A stretch of 64,000 nt of DNA. It comes from a virus (taxonomy: Duplodnaviria; Caudoviricetes). The DNA is taken from IMG/VR virus record IMGVR_UViG_3300031565_000020, positions 758 to 64,757 of that record; one strand, 5' to 3'. Positions 31,836 to 54,848 of this stretch are shown here, piece after piece. The notes beneath the pieces were generated by a model that saw only the letters and a program-made list of their open reading frames with translations, made no database searches and was not told the origin of the DNA. The position numbers and the translations under genes were made by a program. Each line of letters opens with the position of its first letter. The first letter of the stretch is position 1.

Positions 31836-33968
31836 ATGGCAATAAAACCATTAGATGATCTTACTTTTGCAACAGCATCAATAACAGATCCGGCTACCGG
31901 ACAGCCAAACAAGATAGTACCTAACGTAACTTATCAGACAAATGGGTGGGTGAGTTTTGATACAGCCCCTTTTTCTTGGTTTAATTACTTGTTTAACGGC
32001 TATTACACGTGGCAACAATATTTTGAAGCCACTACTGACGATATTTTACTAAATAATCTGACAATTGCAGGGAATAAAACTTTTTCAGGGAGTACTATAT
32101 TTCAAGCTAACATTAATGTAGACATTAATGTGTTTTCGGTTAACACAACGTCAAATTTAGTTGGCGTCAAAGCTGATTTGGCTGTGGTATCGCCGGGGGC
32201 CGACGGTCTAATTGCAGAAGGCATTTTTCCAGTTACTTCACGCCGTGACACAAGCACAGTTGGTTTCAGTGTATTACAGTCTTTTCAAATGAAAAACAGT
32301 AGCGGCGACTACACACCTTATGCTAATTTTCTGTCTGTTATCGATGATAACACCGCCGGAGCCGAGTGTGGTTCTTTTCACATACGCTGTGTGAGTGCGG
32401 GCAATATAAGCACCCCTCAATTTATTTTCAACGATACTGGAAATTTTACAGCAATTACAAGTATAACGATTAATGATACATTTATTAATGCTTCCGAAAT
32501 AGGGATTAATAAATTAACAACGGGCAACAGGACTGCAAAACTTGATTTGTATTCGGATGATACAAATCCTTTTGGTTTAGAAATTCTAAGAAGTAGTGGT
32601 GTAAATGGTACTACGCAGCTATTGCATCATGGTACTGGCAATCTAAGCTTTGAAACATTAGACACAAGTGCAATGAATTTTTCGACTGGAAGTACCAGCC
32701 GTGCTGTTATAGAGGCAAATGGTAATTTTGCATATAAAACAAATTTACTTTTCGTAGATTATGTTAATAGCCGAATCGGTATCAAAAAAACTCCAACGGT
32801 GCACAACCTGGAAGTGCTAACAAGCGCTGCTATTGGAAGCACTGTTGTAGCATCAAGCATGATTGGTATTAATCAATTAGGTACTGGTGATAGGGGCGCC
32901 TATATAGATTTTGTAGCAGAGGATACCAACCCAAATTCCGTAAGAATTATAAGAAATAGCGGAGTGAATGGTAGTTACAGCACAACTAATCAAGGCGACG
33001 GTCAAACGGTATATGAAAATGTTGGTATCGGATCACATAGATTTCGAAATAATGGCGCCGATTCATTATATGTAACTTCTGCAAATCAAATACAAGCAGT
33101 TGCGAATACCAATGCGACATCAAAAGACACCGGCGCCTTTGTGGTGACATTGGGCGGAATGGGAATTGAACAGGATGTATGGCTGGGTGGCAGCCTTAAT
33201 CATGCGAGTGCGCTGTTATTCAAGACGGGGGGAAATGAAGGCTTACGCCTTAGTAATAGTAAACTTAGTACATTAGGAGAACTTACTCCTGATTGCAGCC
33301 CTGGGGGACTTACTTTACAGCAAGGGCCTAACGATGGTTATATTTTAACATGTAAATCAACCGATGTTGCTCATGGTATGACAACAATAGCGGAAACAGA
33401 CACATATGCAACCTTTGACAAGTTCCAAGGAGGACAAGGGGGATTGCAAATTATAGGACTAAACGGAGGTACTGGAATTAGGGGTATCTCTATATCTAGT
33501 TACGCGCCCACAACAGATAATACTACTAGTGTGGCGGGAACTGGTCAAATCGAACTTGTCAGTTACTTAAAAACCGGAACAACCGGAGGAAGTTTAGCAA
33601 GTGACGCCAATTTACTTGCTATGCGTAATGCTGGACTAACTAGACACCTTTTTAAGGGTGATGGAGATATACGCACAAGTACAGGAGTTCTAAGTATATA
33701 TGATAACGAAAACGACATGTTATTAGTACACGCAGCAAGAAACGTGCTATCAGGGAATACCTCACCATTTAAGGATAATAAAGAGTTTAAAAAATACGCC
33801 ACAAGACTAAACGAATTGGGTATCATTGAAAATGGATTTGTAAGTCATCACAAAATGATGCAGCTCAACTTAGGCGCAATGGGGCAAGTTTGGAATATGA
33901 TTAAAGGTATGGCAAAAGAATTCAATATTTCAGAAAAAAAACTATTAACCTTTGCAAAACAATATTAA
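31836..33968 (+). CDS. tail fibre protein
   Basis: 710 aa Gly/Thr/Asn-rich; GW....P...FNYLF baseplate-attachment motif; internal repeat. Confidence 0.8.
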   Translation: MAIKPLDDLTFATASITDPATGQPNKIVPNVTYQTNGWVSFDTAPFSWFNYLFNGYYTWQQYFEATTDDILLNNLTIAGNKTFSGSTIFQANINVDINVFSVNTTSNLVGVKADLAVVSPGADGLIAEGIFPVTSRRDTSTVGFSVLQSFQMKNSSGDYTPYANFLSVIDDNTAGAECGSFHIRCVSAGNISTPQFIFNDTGNFTAITSITINDTFINASEIGINKLTTGNRTAKLDLYSDDTNPFGLEILRSSGVNGTTQLLHHGTGNLSFETLDTSAMNFSTGSTSRAVIEANGNFAYKTNLLFVDYVNSRIGIKKTPTVHNLEVLTSAAIGSTVVASSMIGINQLGTGDRGAYIDFVAEDTNPNSVRIIRNSGVNGSYSTTNQGDGQTVYENVGIGSHRFRNNGADSLYVTSANQIQAVANTNATSKDTGAFVVTLGGMGIEQDVWLGGSLNHASALLFKTGGNEGLRLSNSKLSTLGELTPDCSPGGLTLQQGPNDGYILTCKSTDVAHGMTTIAETDTYATFDKFQGGQGGLQIIGLNGGTGIRGISISSYAPTTDNTTSVAGTGQIELVSYLKTGTTGGSLASDANLLAMRNAGLTRHLFKGDGDIRTSTGVLSIYDNENDMLLVHAARNVLSGNTSPFKDNKEFKKYATRLNELGIIENGFVSHHKMMQLNLGAMGQVWNMIKGMAKEFNISEKKLLTFAKQY

Positions 33969-34781: not shown

Positions 34782-34870
34782 AAAATAGCTTGCTGCATAT
34801 CCGGAAACACCACAGCAAGCATTTTAATAAATAAATTAACTCCTATTTATTTAACCCGGCGCTTTATCAT

Positions 34871-35040
34871 TCAAGAGCCGGGTGTTTTACTCGTATTTTT
34901 CAAAATAACCCTTTCTTTTAAACTCTTTCCGTACCCGTACCAACTATTCCCCCTCCCATCTTCTAAACATTCTAATATGCAAGCGTCTCTCATTAATCGG
35001 TCATACTCTTTTTTGTAATTGTAATCATTTCATTATTCAT
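34871..35040 (-). pseudogene. frameshifted small gene after the LRR array
   Basis: MNNEMITITKK then, in another frame across an A6 run, EYDRLMRDACILECLE; resembles 43184..43312. Confidence 0.4.
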
Positions 35041-35697
35041 TTATTTTCTCCTTTGTTTTTCTGTTTTATTCCCATATTTCCAGCCGACAGAACATCCATT
35101 ATTTATATTCCAATTCACAACATCAAGATTGGCTTGCCCCTGGGGAGTGCCTGGTTTGATTTCCATATTGTTGTTATTTAAATAAAGGCGTGTAAGTCCC
35201 ATAAGTCCATTAAGCGGACTTATGGGACTTATTGAGTTACCGTCTAAATCAAGGTCCGTAAGTCCACTTAATGGGCTGATGTCGCTTATTGAATTGCTGT
35301 ATAAATAAAGGTATTCACGCTCTGTAAGTCCTCTTAATGGGCTGAGGTCACTTATTGAGTTGTATGATAAATCAAGATATGTAAGCGCTGTAAGCCCACT
35401 TAATGGGCTTATGTCACTTATTTTGTTGTCGTCTAAATCAAGGGATGTAAGCGCTGTAAGCCCGCTTAATGGGTTTATGTCGCTTATTGAGTTGTTATAT
35501 AAATTAAGGTCTGTAAGCGTTGTGCAGTATTCTAAACCGGCAATATTTGAAATCTTTTTCATACTAGCACTTAATGATTTTATCAATACCAAATCAAAAG
35601 CCAAAATCTTTCCAGTTGGCTTGCCAATCTTTAAACGGATGACAGATTCTAAATTTGGATCAGGAAAATTCACAACCATATTATTTTCATTTTTCAT
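35041..35697 (-). CDS. internalin-type LRR protein 7 (5 internal modules, one shortened by 3 aa)
   Basis: VNFPDPNLE N-cap; LxxLxLxxNxIxDISPLxxLxx repeats; MEIKPGT..GQ.NLD C-cap. Confidence 0.92.
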   Translation of the reverse strand: MKNENNMVVNFPDPNLESVIRLKIGKPTGKILAFDLVLIKSLSASMKKISNIAGLEYCTTLTDLNLYNNSISDINPLSGLTALTSLDLDDNKISDISPLSGLTALTYLDLSYNSISDLSPLRGLTEREYLYLYSNSISDISPLSGLTDLDLDGNSISPISPLNGLMGLTRLYLNNNNMEIKPGTPQGQANLDVVNWNINNGCSVGWKYGNKTEKQRRK

Positions 35698-36554
35698 TTA
35701 TTTTCTCCTCTGATTTCCGTTTTATTTCCATATTTCCAGTTAACGTCACACTCATTATCCAGATGCCTGTTAACAATATCAAGGTTAGTTTGTCCCTGGG
35801 TGGTGCCTGGTTTGATTTCCATGTCGTTGTTCTGTAAATAAAGGTATTTAAGCGCTGTAAGCCTGTTTAATGGTGTGATGTCACTTATTGAGTTGTTAGC
35901 TAAATGAAGGTATGTAAGAGCTGTAAGGCCGCTTAATGGGCTGATATCAGTTATTGAGTTGTTATCTAAACCAAGGATTTCAAGCGCTGTAAGCCTGCTT
36001 AATGGGCTTACGTCAGTTATTGAGTTGTATGATAAACAAAGTTCTGTAAGCCCTGTAAGCCTGCTTAATGTGCTTATGTCAGTTATTGAGTTACCGTCTA
36101 AATAAAGGTCTTCAAGTTCTGCAAGTCCACTTAATGGGCTGATATCACTTATTGAGTTGTTATCTAAATGAAGATATGTAAGCGCTGTAAGTCCGCTTAA
36201 TGGACTGATGTCACTTATTAAGTTATAGTATAAATAAAGTTCTGTAAGTGCTGTAAGCCTGCTTAATGAGCTTATGTCGGTTATTGAGGTGTTGTGTAAA
36301 TCAAGGGATGTAAGCTCTGTAAGCTCTCTTATTGGGCTTAGATCACTTATTGAGTTGTTATCTAAACCAAGGTATGTAAGAGCTGTACAACATTCTAAAC
36401 CGGTAATATTTGAAATATCTTTATTGCTAGCACTTAATGATTTTATTCCGAACAAATCACAAGCCAAAATCTCCCCAATTGGCTTGTTGATCTCTAAACG
36501 GATGATAGATTCTAAATTTGGATCAGGAAAATTCACAACCATATTATTTTTCAT
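35694..36554 (-). CDS. internalin-type LRR protein 6 (8 internal modules)
   Basis: Same caps; 22-aa repeats. Confidence 0.92.
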   Translation of the reverse strand: MKNNMVVNFPDPNLESIIRLEINKPIGEILACDLFGIKSLSASNKDISNITGLECCTALTYLGLDNNSISDLSPIRELTELTSLDLHNTSITDISSLSRLTALTELYLYYNLISDISPLSGLTALTYLHLDNNSISDISPLSGLAELEDLYLDGNSITDISTLSRLTGLTELCLSYNSITDVSPLSRLTALEILGLDNNSITDISPLSGLTALTYLHLANNSISDITPLNRLTALKYLYLQNNDMEIKPGTTQGQTNLDIVNRHLDNECDVNWKYGNKTEIRGENK

Positions 36555-37086
36555 TTATTTCTCCTTTGTTTTCAGTTTTATTCCCATATTTCCAGTTAAC
36601 ATAACAACCATTATCTATATGCCAATTAACAACATCAAGATTAGTCTGCCCTTGGGTAGTGTCTGGTTTGATTTCCATGTCGTTGTAATTTAAATCAAGG
36701 TATGTAAGAGCTGTAAGCCCACTTAATGGACTTATGTCACTTATTTTGTTGTTATCTAAATAAAGCTTTGTAAGCTTTATAAGTCCACTTAATGGACTTA
36801 TGTCAGTTATTAAGTTACCGTCTAAATAAAGTTCTGTAAGCTTTATAAGTCCATTAAGTGGACTTAGGTCACTTATTGAGTTGTCATTTAAACTAAGGTA
36901 TATAAGCGCTGTGCAACATTCTAAACCGTTAATATTTGAAATATCCTTAAAACCAGCAATTAATGATTTTATCACGATCAAATCAGATTCTAAAATATCC
37001 CCAGTTGGTTTATTGATCTTAAAACGGATGATAGCTTCTAAATTTGGATCAGGGAAATTCACAGCCATATTATTTTTATTTTTCAT
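36544..37086 (-). CDS. internalin-type LRR protein 5 (3 internal modules)
   Basis: Same caps; 22-aa repeats. Confidence 0.92.
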   Translation of the reverse strand: MKNKNNMAVNFPDPNLEAIIRFKINKPTGDILESDLIVIKSLIAGFKDISNINGLECCTALIYLSLNDNSISDLSPLNGLIKLTELYLDGNLITDISPLSGLIKLTKLYLDNNKISDISPLSGLTALTYLDLNYNDMEIKPDTTQGQTNLDVVNWHIDNGCYVNWKYGNKTENKGEINEK

Positions 37087-37816
37087 TTATTTCTCCTTTG
37101 TTTTCCGTTTTATTTCCATATTTCCAGCCGACATAACACCCATTATTTAGATGCCAATTAACAACATCAAGATTTATTTGCCCTTGGGGAGTGCCTGGTT
37201 TAATTTCCATGTCGTTGTTATCTAAATCAAGGGATGTAAGCGCTGTAAGCCCACTTAATGGGCTGATATCAGTTATTGAGTTGTTAGATAAACCAAGGTG
37301 TTTAAGCGCTGTAAGCCCACTTAATGTGCTGATATCAACTATTTCGTTCATGTCTAAATCAAGGAATGTAAGCCCTGTAAGGCTGCTTAATGGTGTTAGG
37401 TCAGTTATTTTGTTGCCGGATAAATCAAGGGATGCAAGCCCTTTAAGGCCGCTTAAAGGGCTTATGTCGCTTATTAAGGTGACAGATAAATCAAGGGATG
37501 TAAGCTCTGTAAGCCCTCTTAATGGGCTGATGTCACTTATTGAGTTATCAGATAAATCAAGGCCTGTAAGAGCTGTAAGCCTGCTTAATGGGCTGATGTC
37601 GCTTATTGAGTTGCCGTATAAATAAAGGGATGTAAGCGCTGTACAGTACTCTAAACCGGTAATATCAGAAATATCTTTATTGCTAGCACCTAATGATTTT
37701 ATTTTGACCAACTCAGATGATAGGATATCCCCTGTTGGTTTGTTGATCTTAAAACGGATGACATCTTCAAGATTTGGATCAGGAAAATTCACACCCTTAT
37801 TATTTTTATTTTTCAT
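37076..37816 (-). CDS. internalin-type LRR protein 4 (6 internal modules)
   Basis: Same caps; 22-aa repeats. Confidence 0.92.
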   Translation of the reverse strand: MKNKNNKGVNFPDPNLEDVIRFKINKPTGDILSSELVKIKSLGASNKDISDITGLEYCTALTSLYLYGNSISDISPLSRLTALTGLDLSDNSISDISPLRGLTELTSLDLSVTLISDISPLSGLKGLASLDLSGNKITDLTPLSSLTGLTFLDLDMNEIVDISTLSGLTALKHLGLSNNSITDISPLSGLTALTSLDLDNNDMEIKPGTPQGQINLDVVNWHLNNGCYVGWKYGNKTENKGEINEK

Positions 37817-38672
37817 TTATTTCTCCTTTGATTTCTGTTTTATTCCCATATTTCCAGTTAACATAACATCCGTCATTCAGATGCCAATTAACAATATCAA
37901 GATTAGTTTGTCCCTGGGTGGTGTCTGGTTTGATTTCCATGTCGTTGTTAGATAAATCAAGGTATGTAAGCTTTGTAAGTTCGCTTAGTGGACTTATGTC
38001 ACTTATTGAGTTGCCGTCTAAATAAAGTTCTGTAAGCTTTATAAGTCCACTTAATGGACTGAGGTCACTGATTGAGTTGACATTTAAACTAAGGTATATA
38101 AGCTTTATAAGTCCACTTAATGGACTTATGTCACTTATTGAGTTGTCGCATAAACCAAGGCGTGTAAGCGCTGTAAGCCCGTTTAATGGGGTGATATCAG
38201 TTATTGAGTTGCTATTAAAACTAAGTGATGTAAGCGCTGTAAGCCTGCTTAATGGTGTTAGGTTAGTTATTTTGTTGCCGGCTAAACCAAGAAATGTAAG
38301 CTTTGTAAGCCCTCTTAATGGGCTTATGTCTCTTATTGAGTTGTTGTCTAAACCAAGGCGTGTAAGTCCTGTAAGTTCACTTAATGGGCTTAGGTCACTG
38401 ATTACGTTGTATGATAAACTAAGGTATATAAGCGCTGTAAGTTCGCTTAATGGACTGATGTCACTTATTGAGTTGCTATTTAAACTAAGGTCTGTAAGAG
38501 CTGTACAGTACTCTAAACCAGTTATATTTGAAATACCCTTAAAACCAGCAATTAATGATTTTATCCCGACCAAATCAGATGATAGAATATCCCCTTTTGG
38601 CTTGTTGATCTCTAACCGGATGACAGCTTCAAGATTTAGATCAGGAAAATTCACAACCATATTATTTTTCAT
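37806..38672 (-). CDS. internalin-type LRR protein 3 (8 internal modules)
   Basis: Same caps; 22-aa repeats. Confidence 0.92.
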   Translation of the reverse strand: MKNNMVVNFPDLNLEAVIRLEINKPKGDILSSDLVGIKSLIAGFKGISNITGLEYCTALTDLSLNSNSISDISPLSELTALIYLSLSYNVISDLSPLSELTGLTRLGLDNNSIRDISPLRGLTKLTFLGLAGNKITNLTPLSRLTALTSLSFNSNSITDITPLNGLTALTRLGLCDNSISDISPLSGLIKLIYLSLNVNSISDLSPLSGLIKLTELYLDGNSISDISPLSELTKLTYLDLSNNDMEIKPDTTQGQTNLDIVNWHLNDGCYVNWKYGNKTEIKGEINEK

Positions 38673-39266
38673 TTATTTTCTCCTCTGATTTTCTGTTTTA
38701 TTTCCATGTTTCCAGTTAACGTCACACCCATTATTCAGATGCCAATTAATAACATCAAGATTAGTTTGTCCCTGGGTAGTGCCTGGTTTTATTTCCATGT
38801 TGTTGTTATATAAATCAAGTTCTGTAAGAGCTGTAAGTTCACTTAATGGGCTGATGTCACTTATTTTGTTGTCATATAAACGAAGGAATGTAAGCGTTGT
38901 AAGTCCTCTTAATGGACTGATGTCACTGATTGAGTTGCTATCTAAATAAAGCTTTGTAAGCTTTGTAAGCCCACTTAATGGACTGATGTCACTGATTGAG
39001 TTGCTATCTAAATAAAGCTTTGTAAGCTTTGTAAGCCCACTTAACGGACTGATATTGGTTATTGGGTTATCTTCTAAATCAAGTTCTGTAAGCGCTGTAC
39101 AGTATTCTAAGCCGGTAATATCAGAAATATCAGACGAACTAGCATATAATTCAGTTATCACGATCAAATCAGATTCTAAAATATCCCCAGTTGGTTTATT
39201 GATCTTAAAACGAATGATATCTTCTAGATTTTTATCAGGGAAATTCACAACCATATTATTTTTCAT
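38673..39266 (-). CDS. internalin-type LRR protein 2 (4 internal modules)
   Basis: Same caps; contains an exact 66-bp tandem duplication. Confidence 0.92.
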   Translation of the reverse strand: MKNNMVVNFPDKNLEDIIRFKINKPTGDILESDLIVITELYASSSDISDITGLEYCTALTELDLEDNPITNISPLSGLTKLTKLYLDSNSISDISPLSGLTKLTKLYLDSNSISDISPLRGLTTLTFLRLYDNKISDISPLSELTALTELDLYNNNMEIKPGTTQGQTNLDVINWHLNNGCDVNWKHGNKTENQRRK

Positions 39267-39866
39267 TTATTTTCTCCTTTGTTTTTCCGTTTTATTCCCA
39301 TGTTTCCAGCCGACATAACATCCGTTATCCAGATGCCAATTAACAATATCAAGATTAGTCTGCCCCGGGGCAGTGCCTGGTTTGATTTCCATGTCGTTGT
39401 AATTTAAAACAAGGGATGTAAGCTTTGTAAGTCCACTAAGCGAACTTATGTCGGTTATTTTGTTGTAGTCTAAATAAAGGTATATAAGCCCTGTAAGCCT
39501 GCTTAATGTGCTTATGTCACTGATTGAGTTGCCGTCTAAATAAAGTTCTGTAAGCTTTATAAGCCCTCTTAATGGGTTGATGTCACTTATTGAGTTGTCA
39601 TTTAAACTAAGGTATATAAGCTCTGTAAGTTCGCTTAATGGGCTAATATCAGTTATTTTGTTGTTATATAAGTAAAGGTCTGTAAGAGCTGTACAGTACT
39701 CTAAACCAGTTATATTTGAAATCTTTTTATTGCTAGCACGTAATGATTTTATTCCGACCAAATCAGAAGCTAAAATATCCCCAGTTGGTTTATTGATCTT
39801 TAAACGGATGACAGCTTCTAGATTTTTATCAGGGAAATTCACAACCATATTATTTTCATTTTTCAT
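39267..39866 (-). CDS. internalin-type LRR protein 1 (4 internal modules)
   Basis: Start reassigned to ATG 39866 (GGGGAG RBS, MKNENNMVVNFPD as in paralogues) rather than 40061. Confidence 0.92.
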   Translation of the reverse strand: MKNENNMVVNFPDKNLEAVIRLKINKPTGDILASDLVGIKSLRASNKKISNITGLEYCTALTDLYLYNNKITDISPLSELTELIYLSLNDNSISDINPLRGLIKLTELYLDGNSISDISTLSRLTGLIYLYLDYNKITDISSLSGLTKLTSLVLNYNDMEIKPGTAPGQTNLDIVNWHLDNGCYVGWKHGNKTEKQRRK

Positions 39867-40671
39867 TTGTTTCTCCCCACTCTTCCCTTTTACCATATTG
39901 TTTACACACATACCACCACCAATGATTGGTTTTGTCAATGCTACACGCATACCGCAATTTATGTTTTTGCATCTTTTTTTCCTCTGTACCGTCTTTTGTG
40001 TACATAGTCCTAAACGGGTTACAACAATAACCGGCAATACAGTTCTTACATGTGTCATCACTTTGTTTTATGACATACTGCTGATTACTAATCAAATCAA
40101 CACAAGTCTTTTCTTTGTATTCTTTTTTCCATATATACCAAGCATAGACTTGCATACCTGTTATATATTTTCCGTCATCCCTAATTTCATCGCTTAACAT
40201 AGGGTAACGGGTGAATGTCTCTATGTTTGTGAGGTAAAACCCATTAAGCCCTGTAAATATTTTTTCGGAAAACCTTTGTTGTCCGGAAAAATACGATTGC
40301 GGTAGTAAAAAAGCAAATGCTTTTTGCGCAACAAGGCCTGCTTGCTGGATAAAAGCGCCAGCGTGTATAAACGGCGGATTACCTATTATGTAAGCTGGTT
40401 TTTCTGCAACAAAATCAAAAGGTTTTAAGAAATCAAATTCAGGATACTGAATTGCCTTAACAGTCTTAAAATATTGCTGCAACACCTTTACCATCGCACC
40501 CTTACCCGCTGCTGGCTCCAATACTGGCAGCGTAAAATCAAAAAAATCTTTATACTTATCTATAAATTGTCTTGTCATAGAATAAGGTGTCTGGTAATCA
40601 TCATCCTTATTGCGTTGACCCTGGTTAACCTTACTATAACATTTACCCGTTTTATTTTTTTCTTTTTCCAT
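39856..40671 (-). CDS. amino-type DNA methyltransferase (probably N6-adenine)
   Basis: D.Y.TP, VLEPAAGKG (SAM motif I), NPPF (motif IV), YAW..W; Cys-rich C-terminal tail. Confidence 0.85.
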   Translation of the reverse strand: MEKEKNKTGKCYSKVNQGQRNKDDDYQTPYSMTRQFIDKYKDFFDFTLPVLEPAAGKGAMVKVLQQYFKTVKAIQYPEFDFLKPFDFVAEKPAYIIGNPPFIHAGAFIQQAGLVAQKAFAFLLPQSYFSGQQRFSEKIFTGLNGFYLTNIETFTRYPMLSDEIRDDGKYITGMQVYAWYIWKKEYKEKTCVDLISNQQYVIKQSDDTCKNCIAGYCCNPFRTMYTKDGTEEKKMQKHKLRYACSIDKTNHWWWYVCKQYGKREEWGETNEK

Positions 40672-48993: not shown

Positions 48994-49067
48994 CGGGGTA
49001 TATGTATGATTTGGTGTAATAAACAGGTCGTACCTGTTTATCGGAGGTTCAAGTCCTCCCGCCCCGA
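48994..49067 (+). ncRNA. aberrant tRNA-like element 1
   Basis: Acceptor CGGGGTA/CGCCCCG, T-arm GGAGG-TTCAAGT-CCTCC, 9-bp stem with 5-nt loop in place of anticodon arm. Confidence 0.6.
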
Positions 49068-49120
49068 ATACATACAGTCTGCCAGGTAGGCAGACTGTAT
49101 AATCTAAAGTTTTTTTCAAA

Positions 49121-49213
49121 CGGGCTGTGGTCTAATTGGGAGCGGCTATCTGATCCATAGCAGTAAGACAAGGGCAAACGCCTTTATTGTGAGTTCGAAT
49201 CTTACCGGTCCGA
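49121..49213 (+). ncRNA. aberrant tRNA-like element 2
   Basis: Acceptor CGGGCTG/CGGTCCG, T-arm GTGAG-TTCGAAT-CTTAC, two internal hairpins, no canonical cloverleaf. Confidence 0.6.
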
Positions 49214-49282
49214 TTGAAAAAACAGTATTGCTAATTTTTAATTTCATTAATACTTATGGGGTGTCACTCTCATAAGTATTAT

Positions 49283-49353
49283 GGCCTAATAATCTAATGG
49301 TAGGATATTAGATTTTCGATCTAAGTACCGGGGTTCGACTCCCTGTTAGGCTA
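49283..49353 (+). tRNA. tRNA-Glu(TTC), no encoded CCA
   Basis: GGCCTAA/TTAGGCT acceptor, D-loop AATGGT, TTAGA-TT[TTC]GA-TCTAA, CGGGG-TTCGACT-CCCTG. Confidence 0.8.
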
Positions 49354-49553
49354 ATGAACAAGCACGAACTGAGCAATAGGAATTATGATAAACGACACAC
49401 TTTAAGTTTTTAATTCCTCCCTTTTGAGCTATACGAGAACAAGGTAGACACAAAAGGGCAGCGTGTTACGTGGGTGGCGAAGGAAAGTCGATGACTAAAC
49501 CCGTTTACCGCTAGACGAACAAGCGGAAATCTAATTAGTACAAAGCAGGATTA

Positions 49554-51264: not shown

Positions 51265-52294
51265 GATAGGCTTTTTTAAAAAACTAAAAAACCAGGCGGA
51301 TGATAACCGTATATACATAGATGGTTCTGCTATGTACAAAGACGGTAGAATTTCTTTTTTGGTTGTACAGTTAGAAACTGAAAATTTAAAAAAATATGTA
51401 ATACCATACGCAGAATTTGTGAAGTTTCTTGACCGGGTGAAGGCCGACAAAGGCGATGAGATTACAATCGAGTATAACGAAGAAGGTACACAATTACAAA
51501 TCAAATGTGGGCGGAAATGCTGTAATTTACCGGTTCTTAAATGGGATGAGAAAAACGATAAAAAGATTGAAACATTTTACGATATACAACAAGGAAACGA
51601 GCTGTCTGTTGATTTTGTACAGGCGTTACAGCACTGTAAGGGCACAATTGACAAACAACGCGGCACGCCTAATAATAATATTGTAGTCGAAAAAGATTAC
51701 ACATGGTCATTCAACAGATACGCTTTTGCTAGGATGAAAAATAATATAAGTTGTTTGGACACTTTGTACATTCCCGTTGAATATGTAGATATCTTAACGG
51801 TTTTGGGGCCCGTTAAAATTAGTCAAACAAAAAATGGCTTATTTTTTGCAAGTGCTGGTAATGATATATTACAAATACACCAACCTGCATATCAAAGCCA
51901 GCATACCCCGAAAGATTTTTTCGATAAAATCACCATGTCGCCGGACATCTTCGACAGTAAAGCGTTGTTAGATGGAATTAGAACAGCCGAAATACTTGTT
52001 GAAAAAGAAGAAATTAAGCGTAGGAAGGTACTACTCAATTTTCAATTGGAAAAAATAACAATTACCGCTGAAAATGATAGCAGTAGTATTCTGTGTGAAA
52101 TTTCACACAAGAGCCGGACGCTACAAAAAATTATTATAGACCCTGTAAATTTCACAAAGGGCATAAGTTTGTGTGAAAAAAATAATGTAATCAATATAAT
52201 TTTTCATGATATTAACGAAAAAGCCGGATACGTGTTGTTTACCAATGATAACAAAGAATATTTGGCAACTTATGAGAGAGTTATTAATGAATGA
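51233..52294 (+). CDS. putative sliding clamp (beta-clamp-like)
   Basis: About 353 aa, MKISKSQL start, located between helicase and polymerase with a clamp loader nearby. Confidence 0.55.
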   Translation: MKISKSQLISKIGFFKKLKNQADDNRIYIDGSAMYKDGRISFLVVQLETENLKKYVIPYAEFVKFLDRVKADKGDEITIEYNEEGTQLQIKCGRKCCNLPVLKWDEKNDKKIETFYDIQQGNELSVDFVQALQHCKGTIDKQRGTPNNNIVVEKDYTWSFNRYAFARMKNNISCLDTLYIPVEYVDILTVLGPVKISQTKNGLFFASAGNDILQIHQPAYQSQHTPKDFFDKITMSPDIFDSKALLDGIRTAEILVEKEEIKRRKVLLNFQLEKITITAENDSSSILCEISHKSRTLQKIIIDPVNFTKGISLCEKNNVINIIFHDINEKAGYVLFTNDNKEYLATYERVINE

Positions 52295-54848
52295 AGGGTT
52301 TTTTGATTTTGAAAAAGCACAAGCGGAAATAAAGGAGCTTTCCTCCATACGCTCGGATACTCTAAAAAAAAGTGTCTGTGAAAAATGTAAACTTTGTAAA
52401 AATCAAATTCCAAAAATGGACGCAATCGGGAAAGGGAAAAAAAAGATTCTTATTGTAACTAATAATCCCGAATGTATTGATGGTCAGATAGAAAAAGAAA
52501 AGCTTAGAAACATTCTAAAAGCAGAAAATATTGATTTGAATAAAGATTGTTGGTACGCATACGCGGTAAAGTGTTACACCGATACTGTATCAATTGCGCG
52601 GGTTAAGCACTGCAAACAATTTCTAATTGATCAAATAGAAGAACTTAAACCCCATAAGATACTTATACTCGGTAAGGCCAGTATGCAGGCATTGTATTGT
52701 GATGAAATCACTATTAGCGATATGGAAAGATATTACCAGGCTGAAATTCCTTGTCAAAAATACAAAGCTTTTGTATATCCGTTCTATTCAATTGAATATA
52801 TGGATTACCAGAAAAATACGATACTATGGGGCCGCTTCAAAAAAACAATACACAGGTTAGCAGTAAGAAAAATTGAAGATTTTAAAGATTATGGTGATTT
52901 AAAAAAAGATTACAATCATTTACTGTCAACTGATCTAGTCAAAATCAAAAAGTTTTTGGCTAAAATCATTCCAAATCAAGACCCTCTGTTTTTTGATTAC
53001 GAGACAACCGGATTAAAGCCGCACGCACCAGGGCATGAAATAATCTGTGTATCTATGCAGCAGGGTAAAAACGCGCTGGCATTTCCAATGTATGATGAGT
53101 TAAAGCCAATAATAGCCGAAATTTTATTCGATAAAAAGATTAAAAAAGTGGCGCACAACATGGCTTTTGAAGATGATTGGAGTTATTTCATTTTGAATAC
53201 CAATGTAAATGGGTGGTTTTGGGATACACAATTAACTGCACATGTTATAGACAACCGGCAATATTTTACCAGTCTCAAACATCAAGTGTTTTTGAATTGC
53301 GGTGTTTTGGGATATGAAAAAGAAGTATCCACACACATAAAGTCTACGAACGGTACTGCCAATGGGTTCAATCGCATGAAAGAGCTTGATATTGAAAAAG
53401 TATTACTTTATTGTTTCTTTGATACTATGTTTATGGCGGATTTATACCCCTATCAAAAAGCCATTATAAAAAAAGACAAACATCTTGCAAAAGGAAATAA
53501 ATTTTTATTACGTTCCATGAGAGGTTTAAATTGTGTACAAAAAGCGGGAATTTGTGTGGACATGGTACAAATACTTAAAAATGAAGAATCGTTAAATAAG
53601 CGGTTGTTTTCGATCAATGAGAGTATACAAAAATGTAAGGAAGTCAAAAAGCTTAATTTGCCGCCTGGTCAAAAGTTCGACCATACTAGCAATAATAAAT
53701 TGAAAGACCTATTATACTGTGTGCTAGGCTATGAGACAGAAAATGCTACTACCGGTGGGGCGAAGTCAGTAGAAAAAGAAGCACTTGAAAAGATCAATTC
53801 TGAATTGTGTAAGTTGGTGTTGGAGTACAGACGATTATTCAAAGCATTGTCTTACGTATTACAGCTCAAAAGGGAGGCAGTAGAGATTGAAGGACTTTGG
53901 AAAATATTCCCGATGTACAGGCTGTCGGGTGTAGTAACATATCGCGGTAGTGCAAGTAATCCCAGTTGGCAGAATATACCGGTTCGAGATCCGGAAATTA
54001 AGAAACTCATTAGAGGTTGCGTAATTCCGAGTCCTAACAATCAAATAGCGGAAGCGGATTACTCAGCCATTGAGGTTGCCGCAAGTGCCTGCTACAACGA
54101 AGATCCAAAATTGATAGAGTATGTAACTGATCCCACAAAAGATATGCATAGAGACGTTGCATCGTTGGTTTTTGGTTGCAAGCCGGAAGAGGTTTCAAAA
54201 CCAATGAGGCAAATGGTTAAGGGCGGTTTTGTATTCAGTCAATTCTACGGTGATTGGTGGAAACAATGTGCGGAAAATATGTGGATTGAAATGACATCGG
54301 AATTTAAGAAAATTTTAAAAGCCAATACGGGAATTTCAACACTCGGAAAATTAAAATATAATGATCGTGGGTACATTGATAAGGCGGCCGGATTTTATAA
54401 TCATATTCAAGAAATTGAATATGATTTTTGGTACAAAAGATTTAGGGTGTATAACCAATGGAAAAAGGATAATTGGACGGCTTACCAGAAAAATGGATAT
54501 GTAGAATTAAAAACCGGTTTTCGAATGACCACTATTCAAAAACGAACTAAAGTTAATAATGGATGTATACAAGGAAGTGCCTTTCATATATTATTATGGA
54601 GCCTTTACGAAATTGTAAAGTATCTAAAAAAAGGAAATTATAAGACTTGTATAATTGGACAAATACATGACTCACTAATTTTTGATTTTGCGCCGGGTGA
54701 GCGGGAAGAGCTTTTACCTGCGATAAAATATATAATGGAAAAAAAAATTAAAAAACATTGGAAATGGATTATTATACCGCTGCGTGTAGAGTTTGAAATT
54801 ACACCGGTAAATGGTTCATGGGATCAAAAAAAGGAGATAACAGAATGA
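52287..54848 (+). CDS. family A DNA polymerase with N-terminal UDG-like and 3'-5' exonuclease domains
   Basis: C..C.LC/VKC/C UDG4-like N-terminus; FDYETTGL, AHN..FE; ADYSAIE, R...K....F...YG, IHDSL. Confidence 0.92.
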   Translation: MNEGFFDFEKAQAEIKELSSIRSDTLKKSVCEKCKLCKNQIPKMDAIGKGKKKILIVTNNPECIDGQIEKEKLRNILKAENIDLNKDCWYAYAVKCYTDTVSIARVKHCKQFLIDQIEELKPHKILILGKASMQALYCDEITISDMERYYQAEIPCQKYKAFVYPFYSIEYMDYQKNTILWGRFKKTIHRLAVRKIEDFKDYGDLKKDYNHLLSTDLVKIKKFLAKIIPNQDPLFFDYETTGLKPHAPGHEIICVSMQQGKNALAFPMYDELKPIIAEILFDKKIKKVAHNMAFEDDWSYFILNTNVNGWFWDTQLTAHVIDNRQYFTSLKHQVFLNCGVLGYEKEVSTHIKSTNGTANGFNRMKELDIEKVLLYCFFDTMFMADLYPYQKAIIKKDKHLAKGNKFLLRSMRGLNCVQKAGICVDMVQILKNEESLNKRLFSINESIQKCKEVKKLNLPPGQKFDHTSNNKLKDLLYCVLGYETENATTGGAKSVEKEALEKINSELCKLVLEYRRLFKALSYVLQLKREAVEIEGLWKIFPMYRLSGVVTYRGSASNPSWQNIPVRDPEIKKLIRGCVIPSPNNQIAEADYSAIEVAASACYNEDPKLIEYVTDPTKDMHRDVASLVFGCKPEEVSKPMRQMVKGGFVFSQFYGDWWKQCAENMWIEMTSEFKKILKANTGISTLGKLKYNDRGYIDKAAGFYNHIQEIEYDFWYKRFRVYNQWKKDNWTAYQKNGYVELKTGFRMTTIQKRTKVNNGCIQGSAFHILLWSLYEIVKYLKKGNYKTCIIGQIHDSLIFDFAPGEREELLPAIKYIMEKKIKKHWKWIIIPLRVEFEITPVNGSWDQKKEITE

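What the first reader, a model, noticed from the sequence alone, without database searches (positions are those of the whole stretch)
35100..39760. LRR variation concentrates on binding-face codons while framework codons are nearly frozen
Seen: in LxxLxLxxN, position 3 takes D/Y/E/S/K/F/R/G/H/I, position 5 takes Y/S/D/G/R/H/C/N/V, and the 7-8 pair has over 20 forms (YN, DG, SY, AG, CD, DM, YY...). The IS/TDISPL side barely changes, and framework Leu codons are position-fixed (CTT, CTT, TTA, TTA, CTT). Tyr/Ser/Asp are common at the variable sites. Inference: diversifying selection on a homogenised scaffold. No reverse transcriptase is present and Asn AAC codons are largely kept, so this is not DGR-like.
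Basis: partly seen in the sequence, partly recalled or inferred. Interest (0 to 1): 0.7.

Follow-up and report, generated by a model that had tools for sequence, protein, structure and literature searches.

The report
Phage array of diversified LRR binders
A soil phage carries seven back-to-back genes for small leucine-rich-repeat proteins whose predicted binding face varies while the scaffold stays fixed; this pattern is ordinary for such proteins but rare in a phage, and hints at a set of binders aimed at changeable host targets.

Summary
Window 35041-39866 (minus strand) holds seven tandem genes, each N-cap + 4-9 LRR modules of 22 residues + C-cap, 45 modules in all. The four most variable module columns are the four x positions of LxxLxLxxN.

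- dN/dS at the four sites is 1.4-2.75 against pooled synonymous change, but about 0.8-0.95 against those codons' own synonymous change.
- The scaffold is frozen only in the beta-strand half (4-fold third bases 225/226 identical). The convex half and the caps carry much synonymous change (cap dS 0.40-0.53).
- Between close relatives the array changes mainly by gene and module gain, loss and mosaic exchange. A sister phage with 96-98% identical flanks has three genes.

The proteins lack signal peptides and any effector domain. They are translationally coupled behind an orphan DNA methyltransferase at the end of the replication operon. LRR genes are nearly absent from known phages.

My best reading is an accordion-like family of soluble binder proteins evolving against variable targets, probably host proteins. 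The target is unknown. It is a new variant of a known kind.

The parts
39267..39866 (-). g7: LRR gene, 199 aa, N-cap + 5 modules + C-cap. First of the array; its start overlaps the end of the methyltransferase gene by 11 bases.
   Evidence: true start at MKNENNM, preceded by GGGGAG; Pfam LRR_4 E 2.8e-25
38673..39266 (-). g6: LRR gene, 197 aa, 5 modules. Modules 2 and 3 are identical copies.
   Evidence: A 71-nt exact internal repeat. A variant with one module fewer (P0022, 175 aa) is on record from a 64,693-base contig.
37806..38672 (-). g5: LRR gene, 288 aa, 9 modules.
   Evidence: AlphaFold2 model with mean pLDDT 91.9 and beta-strands at module positions 9-11 of all nine modules. Best fold matches are internalins InlA/InlF and the Roco LRR domain.
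37076..37816 (-). g4: LRR gene, 246 aa, 7 modules.
   Evidence: Pfam LRR_4 E 1.5e-37
36544..37086 (-). g3: LRR gene, 180 aa, 4 modules.
   Evidence: Pfam LRR_4 E 5e-20
35694..36554 (-). g2: LRR gene, 286 aa, 9 modules.
   Evidence: Pfam LRR_4 E 3.5e-46
35041..35697 (-). g1: LRR gene, 218 aa, 6 modules, one of them shortened to 19 residues. Last of the array.
   Evidence: Pfam LRR_4 E 1.7e-29
39856..40671 (-). DNA methyltransferase-like gene directly upstream, in the same operon. Its 3' end carries the same Shine-Dalgarno/start junction as the LRR genes.
   Evidence: phrog_799 DNA methyltransferase E 5.1e-26; NPPF motif read in the translation; junction sequences
34782..35040 (.). Convergent junction between the late (+) and early (-) blocks. 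On the minus strand it is the 3' flank of the array. It holds a reading frame that is broken here but fused in frame to the last LRR gene of the sister phage.
   Evidence: one terminator-like hairpin on + at 34879-34893 (consensus match only)
31836..33968 (+). Tail-fibre-like gene next to the array. Not part of the array, but it varies together with it.
   Evidence: Position after the baseplate genes. It has no Pfam or PHROG match of its own, so the name is my inference. Only the N-terminal ~85 residues resemble those of the sister phage. No blastn alignment over L006 13267-15113.

Best explanation
The region is a tandem family of seven phage genes. Each encodes only an LRR binding scaffold: N-terminal cap, 4-9 internalin-type 22-residue repeats, C-terminal cap. 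There is no signal peptide and no effector domain.

The genes sit at the distal end of the leftward replication/methyltransferase operon. Each has an AGGAG ribosome-binding site built into the tail of the previous gene. They are therefore most likely made together with the early or middle genes and stay in the infected cell's cytoplasm (inferred).

Each paralog presents a different concave beta-sheet face, built from four variable residues per repeat drawn mostly from Tyr, Asp, Ser, Asn and Gly. The set works as a small library of binders.

The library evolves in two ways:
- Homologous or unequal recombination between the near-identical scaffold segments adds, deletes and reshuffles whole modules and whole genes. 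This is shown by comparison with relatives.
- Amino-acid replacement at the four concave positions is faster than pooled synonymous change, which suggests diversifying selection. This evidence is moderate.

The most likely job (inferred, not shown) is to bind and neutralise or redirect variable host proteins such as defence or other host-range factors. This would resemble how LRR-only proteins such as ribonuclease inhibitor block enzymes (recalled analogy). The target is unknown.
For: Anatomy:
- Seven genes and 45 modules.
- Only LRR families are hit in Pfam.
- The model is a confident LRR solenoid, pLDDT 91.9, with strands at module positions 9-11. Best fold matches are internalins.
- N-termini begin directly with the cap (MKNNMVVNFPDPNLE...), with no hydrophobic leader.
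- The four bacterial proteins that share the rare C-cap and that I read (P0027, P0121, P0122, P0124, of the eight hits outside this lineage) all start with hydrophobic leaders: a Cys-containing, lipoprotein-like leader in three and a multi-span membrane N-terminus in P0122.

Expression context:
- The array is on the same strand as, and directly behind, the helicase, Toprim and methyltransferase genes.
- Every start is preceded by AGGAG, or GGGGAG for g7, and starts abut or overlap the previous gene.

Variation pattern:
- Per-column statistics.
- First and second bases of the variable codons differ at 0.28-0.34 per site in independent nearest pairs. Framework third bases differ at 0.10-0.15 (Fisher p 1.9e-6 and 5.6e-10).
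- Omega 1.5-2.5; parsimony ratio 1.43-2.75.
- 17 non-synonymous and 0 synonymous differences in 64 position-matched variable codons.
- Restricted residue alphabet.

Recombination and copy-number change:
- Sister phage L006 has 96.4-98.3% identical flanks but three LRR genes.
- Its first gene shares a 307-nt exact tract with g5, and modules 1-5 differ at 1 of 330 bases. It then switches to modules whose best window match is g4, g7, g5 and g7 in turn, at 89-94%.
- A one-module deletion variant of g6 exists.
- Contigs of run X4 join across 1533, 531, 660 and 141 bases of the array.

Accessory status:
- Distant relatives of the methyltransferase neighbourhood (L002, L003) have no LRR gene behind the methyltransferase.
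Against: - No expression, localisation or binding data exist.
- The host is unknown.
- The array abuts the tail-fibre module, and the tail fibre's distal part differs between the same two phages. A virion-associated or host-recognition role is therefore not excluded.
- Omega exceeds 1 only against pooled or neighbouring synonymous sites. Against the variable codons' own synonymous change it is about 0.8-0.95.
- One bootstrap interval includes 1.
- Synonymous change per site in the convex half is as high as non-synonymous change at the variable codons.
- Modules are short (66 nt) and recombining, so the trees are poorly resolved and all counts are approximate.
- The order and number of the seven genes rest on the original assembly. 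Public contigs confirm the pieces and some junctions, but none spans the array.
Confidence: 0.55

Rival explanations
1. There is no positive selection. The four positions are simply the solvent-exposed, structurally unconstrained residues of any LRR. They drift, within a hydrophilic alphabet, while the core is under purifying selection. The array is a recently expanded gene family.
For: - pN about equals pS at the variable codons themselves: 0.490 against 0.517 over all pairs, and 0.24-0.44 against 0.34-0.52 in nearest pairs.
- Synonymous changes per site in the convex half (about 10.7, derived from the per-position counts) match non-synonymous changes per site at the variable codons (10.5-13).
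- One bootstrap interval for omega includes 1 (0.94-2.40).
- With the all-column tree, 14 of 120 changes are synonymous, against about 16% expected under neutrality. This is not a significant deficit.
Against: - Omega is 1.67 (1.23-2.31) and 2.50 (1.69-3.94) in two other pairings.
- 131 non-synonymous against 9 synonymous changes on the framework tree.
- 17 non-synonymous and 0 synonymous in the sister-phage comparison.
- 4-fold sites interleaved with the variable codons are 225 of 226 identical.
- At positions 9, 11 and 14, 4-fold codons keep the column's own third base in 26 of 30 cases.
- D, Y, S, N and G make 82% of residues against a 28% background, and hydrophobic residues 5.6% against 37%. 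The sites are selected, not free.
Confidence: 0.25
2. The proteins are virion-associated or released adhesins, that is, accessory receptor-binding or surface-adhesion proteins. The array broadens what the particle sticks to, as multiple tailspikes do in some phages.
For: - The array lies next to the tail-fibre gene and the two small genes behind it.
- The tail fibre's distal part and the LRR set both differ between the window and L006, while everything around them is 94-98% identical.
- The closest solved folds are bacterial adhesins/invasins (internalins).
- The four bacterial proteins with the same C-cap that I read look exported or membrane-bound.
Against: - The genes are on the opposite strand from all structural genes and are translationally coupled to the methyltransferase/replication operon.
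- There is no domain besides cap-LRR-cap that could dock on a baseplate or fibre.
- There is no signal peptide.
Confidence: 0.15
3. Targeted hypermutation, DGR-like or another templated mechanism, writes the variable codons.
For: - The third base of the variable codons is largely kept while the first two bases vary. Position 11 is NNT in 44 of 45 modules. Position 14 is NNC in 38 of 45. Position 9 is NNC in 31 of 45. This is the look of mutagenised AAY codons.
- The neighbouring codons are invariant even at 4-fold sites, which gene conversion alone cannot produce without also copying the variable codons between them.
Against: - No reverse transcriptase in the complete record.
- No LRR-like template copy outside the seven genes.
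- Adenines in framework codons (AAC 42 of 45, ACA, TTA, ATA) are kept.
- Contigs of three runs match the window without differences over most of the array. Contigs hide rare variants, so this is weak evidence.
- Differences from the sister phage come in whole-module blocks.
Confidence: 0.04

Closest known systems
[quoted passage not shown]
   Same: - Up to 19 tandem paralogous genes.
- Each has a variable number (2-14) of ~22-residue LRRs, with a few hypervariable positions on one face.
- Strains differ in gene number and repeat number despite conserved flanks.
- There are signatures of recombination inside the locus.
   Different: [quoted passage not shown]
- That locus is littered with gene fragments.
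- Here the genes are in a phage, lack both signals, are tightly packed with overlapping or abutting stops and starts, and have their own rare C-cap.
Listeria internalins (InlA, InlB, InlF, InlH; PDB 2omv, 1o6v, 4fmz, 1h6u)
   Same: - 22-residue repeat type and N-terminal cap.
- Same fold: Foldseek E about 1e-20, 31-38% identity.
- Ligand binding through the concave face (established knowledge).
   Different: - Internalins have a signal peptide, an Ig-like inter-repeat domain and a wall anchor or GW modules (recalled from memory).
- Those features do not appear here.
Lamprey variable lymphocyte receptors and engineered repebodies
   Same: - Cap-LRR-cap binders.
- Diversity sits on the concave strand positions and is rich in Tyr/Asp/Ser/Asn/Gly.
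- Module number is variable.
- This comparison is an analogy recalled from memory; VLRs are mentioned in PMC10392669.
   Different: - VLRs are assembled somatically from cassettes by a deaminase-linked process.
- Here seven complete germline genes exist, and nothing suggests somatic assembly.
Gene 'accordions' of viral host-range or anti-defence genes (poxvirus K3L recalled from memory; phage segmental amplification of anti-defence loci, PMC13096335, abstract seen in the listing)
   Same: Copy number of an accessory gene family expands and contracts by recombination between closely related viruses.
   Different: - Those cases amplify a known antagonist.
- Here the function is not known, and the copies are already diversified.

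Membership tests
Leucine-rich repeat superfamily (bacterial/internalin-type 22-residue class) | LxxLxLxxN core repeated in tandem; Pfam LRR families matched | tested here: met
   LRR_4 E 5e-20 to 2.1e-48 and LRR_8 in all seven proteins. 45 modules; L at module positions 7, 10 and 12 and N at 15 in 43-45 of 44-45 modules.
Leucine-rich repeat superfamily (bacterial/internalin-type 22-residue class) | Curved solenoid with a parallel beta-sheet on the concave side | tested here: met
   AlphaFold2 pLDDT 91.9, with one short strand per module at positions 9-11. Foldseek matches to InlA, InlF, Roco LRR and designed LRRs, E 1e-15 to 1e-20.
Listeria-type internalins | N-terminal signal peptide | tested here: not met
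   All seven proteins start MKN(K/E)NN-VNFPDPNLE, which is the cap itself, with no hydrophobic stretch. This was read from the sequence; no predictor was run.
Listeria-type internalins | Ig-like inter-repeat domain and wall/membrane anchor after the LRRs | tested here: not met
   Only a ~45-residue C-cap follows the repeats. No further Pfam family was matched.
Diversity-generating retroelement target | Reverse transcriptase encoded nearby | tested here: not met
   PF00078: 0 matches at E<=1 in the whole 64,757-base record, while the control genomes gave matches. No RT among 67 ORFs.
Diversity-generating retroelement target | Template repeat, with variation confined to template adenines | tested here: not met
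   All LRR-like DNA lies within the array. Adenine-bearing framework codons are kept: AAC 42/45, ACA 36/45 and 33/44, TTA 44/45.
F. psychrophilum-type tandem LRR surface-protein locus | Tandem paralogs with variable repeat number and hypervariable face | tested here: met
   Seven genes with 4-9 modules. Three genes in the sister phage.
F. psychrophilum-type tandem LRR surface-protein locus | [quoted passage not shown] | tested here: not met
   No leader. No T9SS C-terminal domain family among the Pfam matches.

The most novel reading that the evidence does not exclude
Phages can carry their own evolvable binder library. This would be an early-expressed, accordion-like array of minimal cap-LRR-cap proteins, each paralog neutralising a different variant of a host immune or host-range protein. 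That would be a new structural class of anti-defence protein built on the scaffold that cellular immune receptors use.

A bolder part of this reading concerns the module itself. Hypervariable codons are interleaved with codons that are invariant even at 4-fold sites. This could reflect a so far undescribed, non-DGR way of focusing change on the binding face.
Probability: 0.2. Interest if true: 0.8.

Novelty: new variant of a known kind. Interest (0 to 1): 0.5.

Why it matters
The setting is the interesting part.

LRR genes are close to absent from catalogued phages:
- g5 matches no PHROG family, and g3 matches one family of unknown function only weakly.
- Only 29 of 50,697 phage records give any tblastn match. 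26 of these are unannotated multi-record 'Listeria phage' entries, which may be host DNA.
- The C-cap has only 10 relatives among 1.84 billion representative proteins.

This lytic-type phage devotes 4.8 kb (7% of its genome) to seven signal-less LRR proteins next to an orphan methyltransferase. Its closest relative keeps only three, in mosaic form. If the proteins bind host defence or host-range factors, they would be a natural, evolvable binder scaffold in phages. They would also be a tractable system for studying how repeat proteins diversify.

Tried and rejected
- **Ancestral reconstruction.** It was not available for a SLAC-type count. I used counts of fewest state changes instead.
- **Relatives by protein patterns.** Four viral-contig scans found nothing or only a contig that breaks inside the first LRR gene (L001/L007/L009). 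The first genome-contig scan found nothing. The second found one weak C-cap relative in an uncultured-bacterium MAG. The host therefore stays unknown.
- **blastn of the array against 50,697 phage records.** No match.
- **PADLOC.** No match for two LRR proteins, the methyltransferase or the membrane protein.
- **Earlier notes of this scan.** Nothing at this place. One unrelated note came up by sequence.
- **RNA evidence.** No RNA holder was listed, so nothing can be said on expression.
- **Within-population variation.** Only contigs could be laid, and they drop rare variants.
- **Antisense gene as the cause of the frozen synonymous sites.** Rejected. The long + strand frames (for example 38077-38688) share their third codon base with the sense codons (worked out from the coordinates), so they would not constrain them.
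- **Hairpin at each module junction** (TAAGCCCA-TTAAG-TGGGCTTA, flagged as terminator-like on +). No covariation support on the mRNA strand: 73.3% of cells paired against 73.0% in shuffles, and 191 of 500 shuffles were as high. Both strands fold better than shuffles (z -2.67 and -3.91), which repeats alone can cause. The + strand alignment was not counted.
- **Small reading frame behind g1.** It is broken in the window.
- **Literature.** Five searches listed no paper on tandem LRR genes in a phage.
- **Complex prediction.** Not used, because there was no candidate partner.

Full report
**What the window is.** The window is bases 758-64757 of a 64,757-base virus record that CheckV rates as complete. 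Pfam shows a tailed phage.
- The + strand from 10.9 to about 34.8 kb carries portal, capsid, a sheath-like protein (DUF3383), tape measure and baseplate genes.
- The - strand from 46.3 kb down to 39.9 kb carries a helicase, a Toprim protein and a methyltransferase.
- Further on lie a family A polymerase, a clamp-loader-like ATPase, a RecA-like protein, SbcCD-like proteins and terminase.
- No integrase and no reverse transcriptase were found.
- The capsid protein is at most 34% identical to any of 50,697 catalogued phages.

**The object.** Between the tail-fibre end of the late block and the methyltransferase lie seven tandem minus-strand genes, g1-g7 (35041-39866).
- Each protein is an N-terminal cap of ~52 residues, then 4-9 repeats of 22 residues, then a ~45-residue C-cap.
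- Nothing else is present: only LRR families match in Pfam.
- The N-termini start with the cap itself, with no hydrophobic leader.
- Every start codon is preceded by AGGAG (GGGGAG for g7) lying inside the tail of the previous gene. Starts abut or overlap the previous stop. The methyltransferase gene ends with the same junction.
- The genes therefore look like real, translationally coupled members of the leftward operon. That they are expressed early and stay in the cytoplasm is inference.

**Check of the observation.**
- The 7-8 pair has 27 forms.
- The four most variable of 22 columns (2.5-2.9 bits, next 1.96) are the four x positions of LxxLxLxxN. The chance of that coincidence is 1/7315.
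- Leu codons are position-fixed as CTT, CTT, TTA, TTA, CTT.
- Asn15 is AAC in 42 of 45 modules.
- D, Y, S, N and G fill 148 of 180 variable positions, against 27.7% in 16 other phage genes. Hydrophobic residues fill 10 of 180, against 37% (modules are not independent, so the p-values are overstated).
- The AlphaFold2 model of g5 is confident (pLDDT 91.9). It places one short strand per module at positions 9-11.
- By the established geometry of LRR solenoids, x9 and x11 point out of the concave sheet, and x13-x14 lie on the adjoining rim. I could not measure this on coordinates.
- The best fold matches are internalins and the Roco LRR domain.

**Is it diversifying selection?** The answer depends on the synonymous baseline.

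All-pairs Nei-Gojobori counts give:
- pN 0.490 and pS 0.517 at the four codons;
- pN 0.185 and pS 0.282 elsewhere.

Phylogenetically independent nearest-neighbour pairs give:
- first and second bases of the variable codons differing at 0.34 (60/176) or 0.28 (73/264) per site;
- framework third bases differing at 0.15 (54/351) or 0.10 (52/521).

Against all-site dS, omega is 1.52 (0.94-2.40), 1.67 (1.23-2.31) or 2.50 (1.69-3.94), depending on how the pairs are chosen. Framework omega is 0.40-0.49.

Fewest-change counts on module trees give 131 non-synonymous against 9 synonymous changes (per-site ratio 2.75), or 106 against 14 (ratio 1.43), at the four codons. The framework ratio is 0.45-0.47.

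In position-matched modules of g5/h1 and g4/h2, 17 of 64 variable codons differ, and all 17 differences are non-synonymous. Of 274 framework codons, 26 differ non-synonymously and 18 synonymously.

Together with the restricted residue alphabet, this favours selection for change. It is not conclusive.

**An unexplained feature.** Synonymous change is very uneven within the module.
- In the beta-strand half (codons 4-16), 4-fold third bases are identical in 225 of 226 codons. This holds although the hypervariable codons sit between them.
- 4-fold codons at variable positions 9, 11 and 14 keep their column's third base in 26 of 30 cases.
- In the convex half (codons 17-22 and 1-3), amino acids are conserved but AGC/AGT, GGG/GGA, GAC/GAT and ATA/ATC alternate freely.
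- Summing the framework-tree counts, synonymous changes per synonymous site are about 1.6 in the beta-strand half and about 10.7 in the convex half.
- The caps of the same paralogs have dS 0.40 and 0.53.
- Codon usage elsewhere in the phage is mixed (CTT 23%, TTA 32% of Leu), so codon bias does not explain it.
- Gene conversion cannot homogenise codons 10 and 12 without copying codons 9, 11 and 13.
- So either replacement at the variable codons is very fast after each module birth (local omega about 5-8), or the beta-strand half is constrained at the nucleotide level for an unknown reason.
- Two ideas failed. An antisense gene would share its wobble bases with the sense codons and so would not constrain them. 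A junction hairpin has no covariation support on the mRNA strand.

**How the array changes between relatives.** Locus L006 is a sister phage. Its flanks are 96.4-98.3% identical in DNA, yet it has three LRR genes of 288, 244 and 257 residues.
- Its first gene shares a 307-nt exact tract with g5, and modules 1-5 differ at 1 of 330 bases. That is more similar than the flanks.
- It then switches to modules whose best window match is g4, g7, g5 and g7 in turn, at 89-94%.
- Its second gene matches g4 exactly in module 5 and at 80-96% in the other modules.
- Its third gene is a chimera fused to a downstream frame that is broken in the window.
- A 175-residue form of g6 lacking one of its two identical modules is on record from a 64,693-base contig.
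- Contigs of run X4 (a relative, 90-99% alike) join across 1533, 531, 660 and 141 bases of the array.
- Contigs of runs X1-X3 match the window's pieces without differences, apart from an A>T at window 36574 in X1 and X2 and one variant stretch in X3. None spans the array, so the gene order rests on the original assembly.
- A 38-kb relative contig breaks inside the first LRR gene.
- More distant phages with a 44-45% identical methyltransferase have no LRR gene behind it.
- The tail fibre's distal part also differs between the window and L006.

**Where the family comes from.**
- A whole-protein search returns thousands of ordinary bacterial LRR proteins (3618 at E<=0.001 among 8000 candidates).
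- The C-cap is rare. A profile search of 1.84 billion representative proteins finds 10 at E<=0.001. Two of them are this phage lineage.
- The four bacterial ones I read carry hydrophobic N-terminal leaders: a Cys-containing, lipoprotein-like leader in three and a multi-span membrane N-terminus in P0122. One of them (P0027) strings three cap-LRR-cap units in a single chain.
- The phage family thus looks like a signal-less derivative of exported bacterial proteins (inference).
- Phage catalogues hardly know such genes.

**Reading.** Best explanation (confidence 0.55): a family of soluble LRR-only binders made from the early operon. It is diversified on the concave face, and reshuffled and resized by recombination. 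It most likely binds variable host proteins, and the neighbouring orphan methyltransferase fits an anti-defence setting.

Rivals:
- plain relaxed constraint without positive selection (0.25);
- a virion or adhesin role linked to the adjacent tail fibre (0.15);
- targeted hypermutation (0.04).

**Comparison with what is known.** The closest described system is the tandem LRR surface-protein locus of Flavobacterium psychrophilum (PMC10392669, passages read). It shares the architecture and the dynamics but is bacterial and exported. Five literature searches listed no paper on tandem LRR genes in a phage. I rate this a new variant of a known kind, interest 0.5.

Noticed in passing
window 35041-39866, module codons 4-16 versus 17-22 and 1-3: Synonymous sites are frozen in the beta-strand half of the module (4-fold third bases 225 of 226 identical). 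In the convex half they toggle freely (AGC/AGT 14:14, GGG/GGA 11:11). Neither gene conversion nor codon bias explains this.
   Followed up: partly
window, each module junction, e.g. 35389-35413 and 38304-38328 (+): The codons for I-S-P-L-S-G-L-T form an 8-bp inverted repeat (TAAGCCCA / TGGGCTTA, loop TTAAG), recurring every 66 bases. Two copies were flagged as terminator-like on the + strand. There is no covariation support on the mRNA strand, and the + strand was not counted.
   Followed up: partly
window 34870-35040 (-); L006 12180-12359 (+): A ~56-codon frame directly behind the last LRR gene is fused in frame to the last LRR gene of the sister phage (P0013, 257 aa). In the window it is cut off by a stop and shifted out of frame.
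   Followed up: partly
window 31836-33968 (+) versus L006 13277-15358 (-): The tail-fibre-like proteins of the two near-identical phages share only their first ~85 residues. The rest is unrelated at the DNA level, which suggests a host-range swap next to the LRR array.
   Followed up: partly
window 48994-49354 (+): A small tRNA cluster. It holds tRNA-Glu(TTC), a 93-base tRNA-like gene that ARAGORN reads with a four-base anticodon (ccat; Rfam tRNA 32.7 bits), and a third sub-threshold tRNA match (27.3 bits).
   Followed up: partly
window 52206-54848 (+): The family A DNA polymerase carries an N-terminal uracil-DNA-glycosylase-superfamily stretch (residues 97-166, E 3.7e-6) ahead of its exonuclease and polymerase domains.
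   Followed up: no
window 35360-35713, 36274-36693, 37191-37625, 38077-38688 (+): Long open frames lie antisense to the LRR genes (up to 203 codons). They share wobble positions with the sense codons and are most likely a by-product of stop-free repeats.
   Followed up: partly
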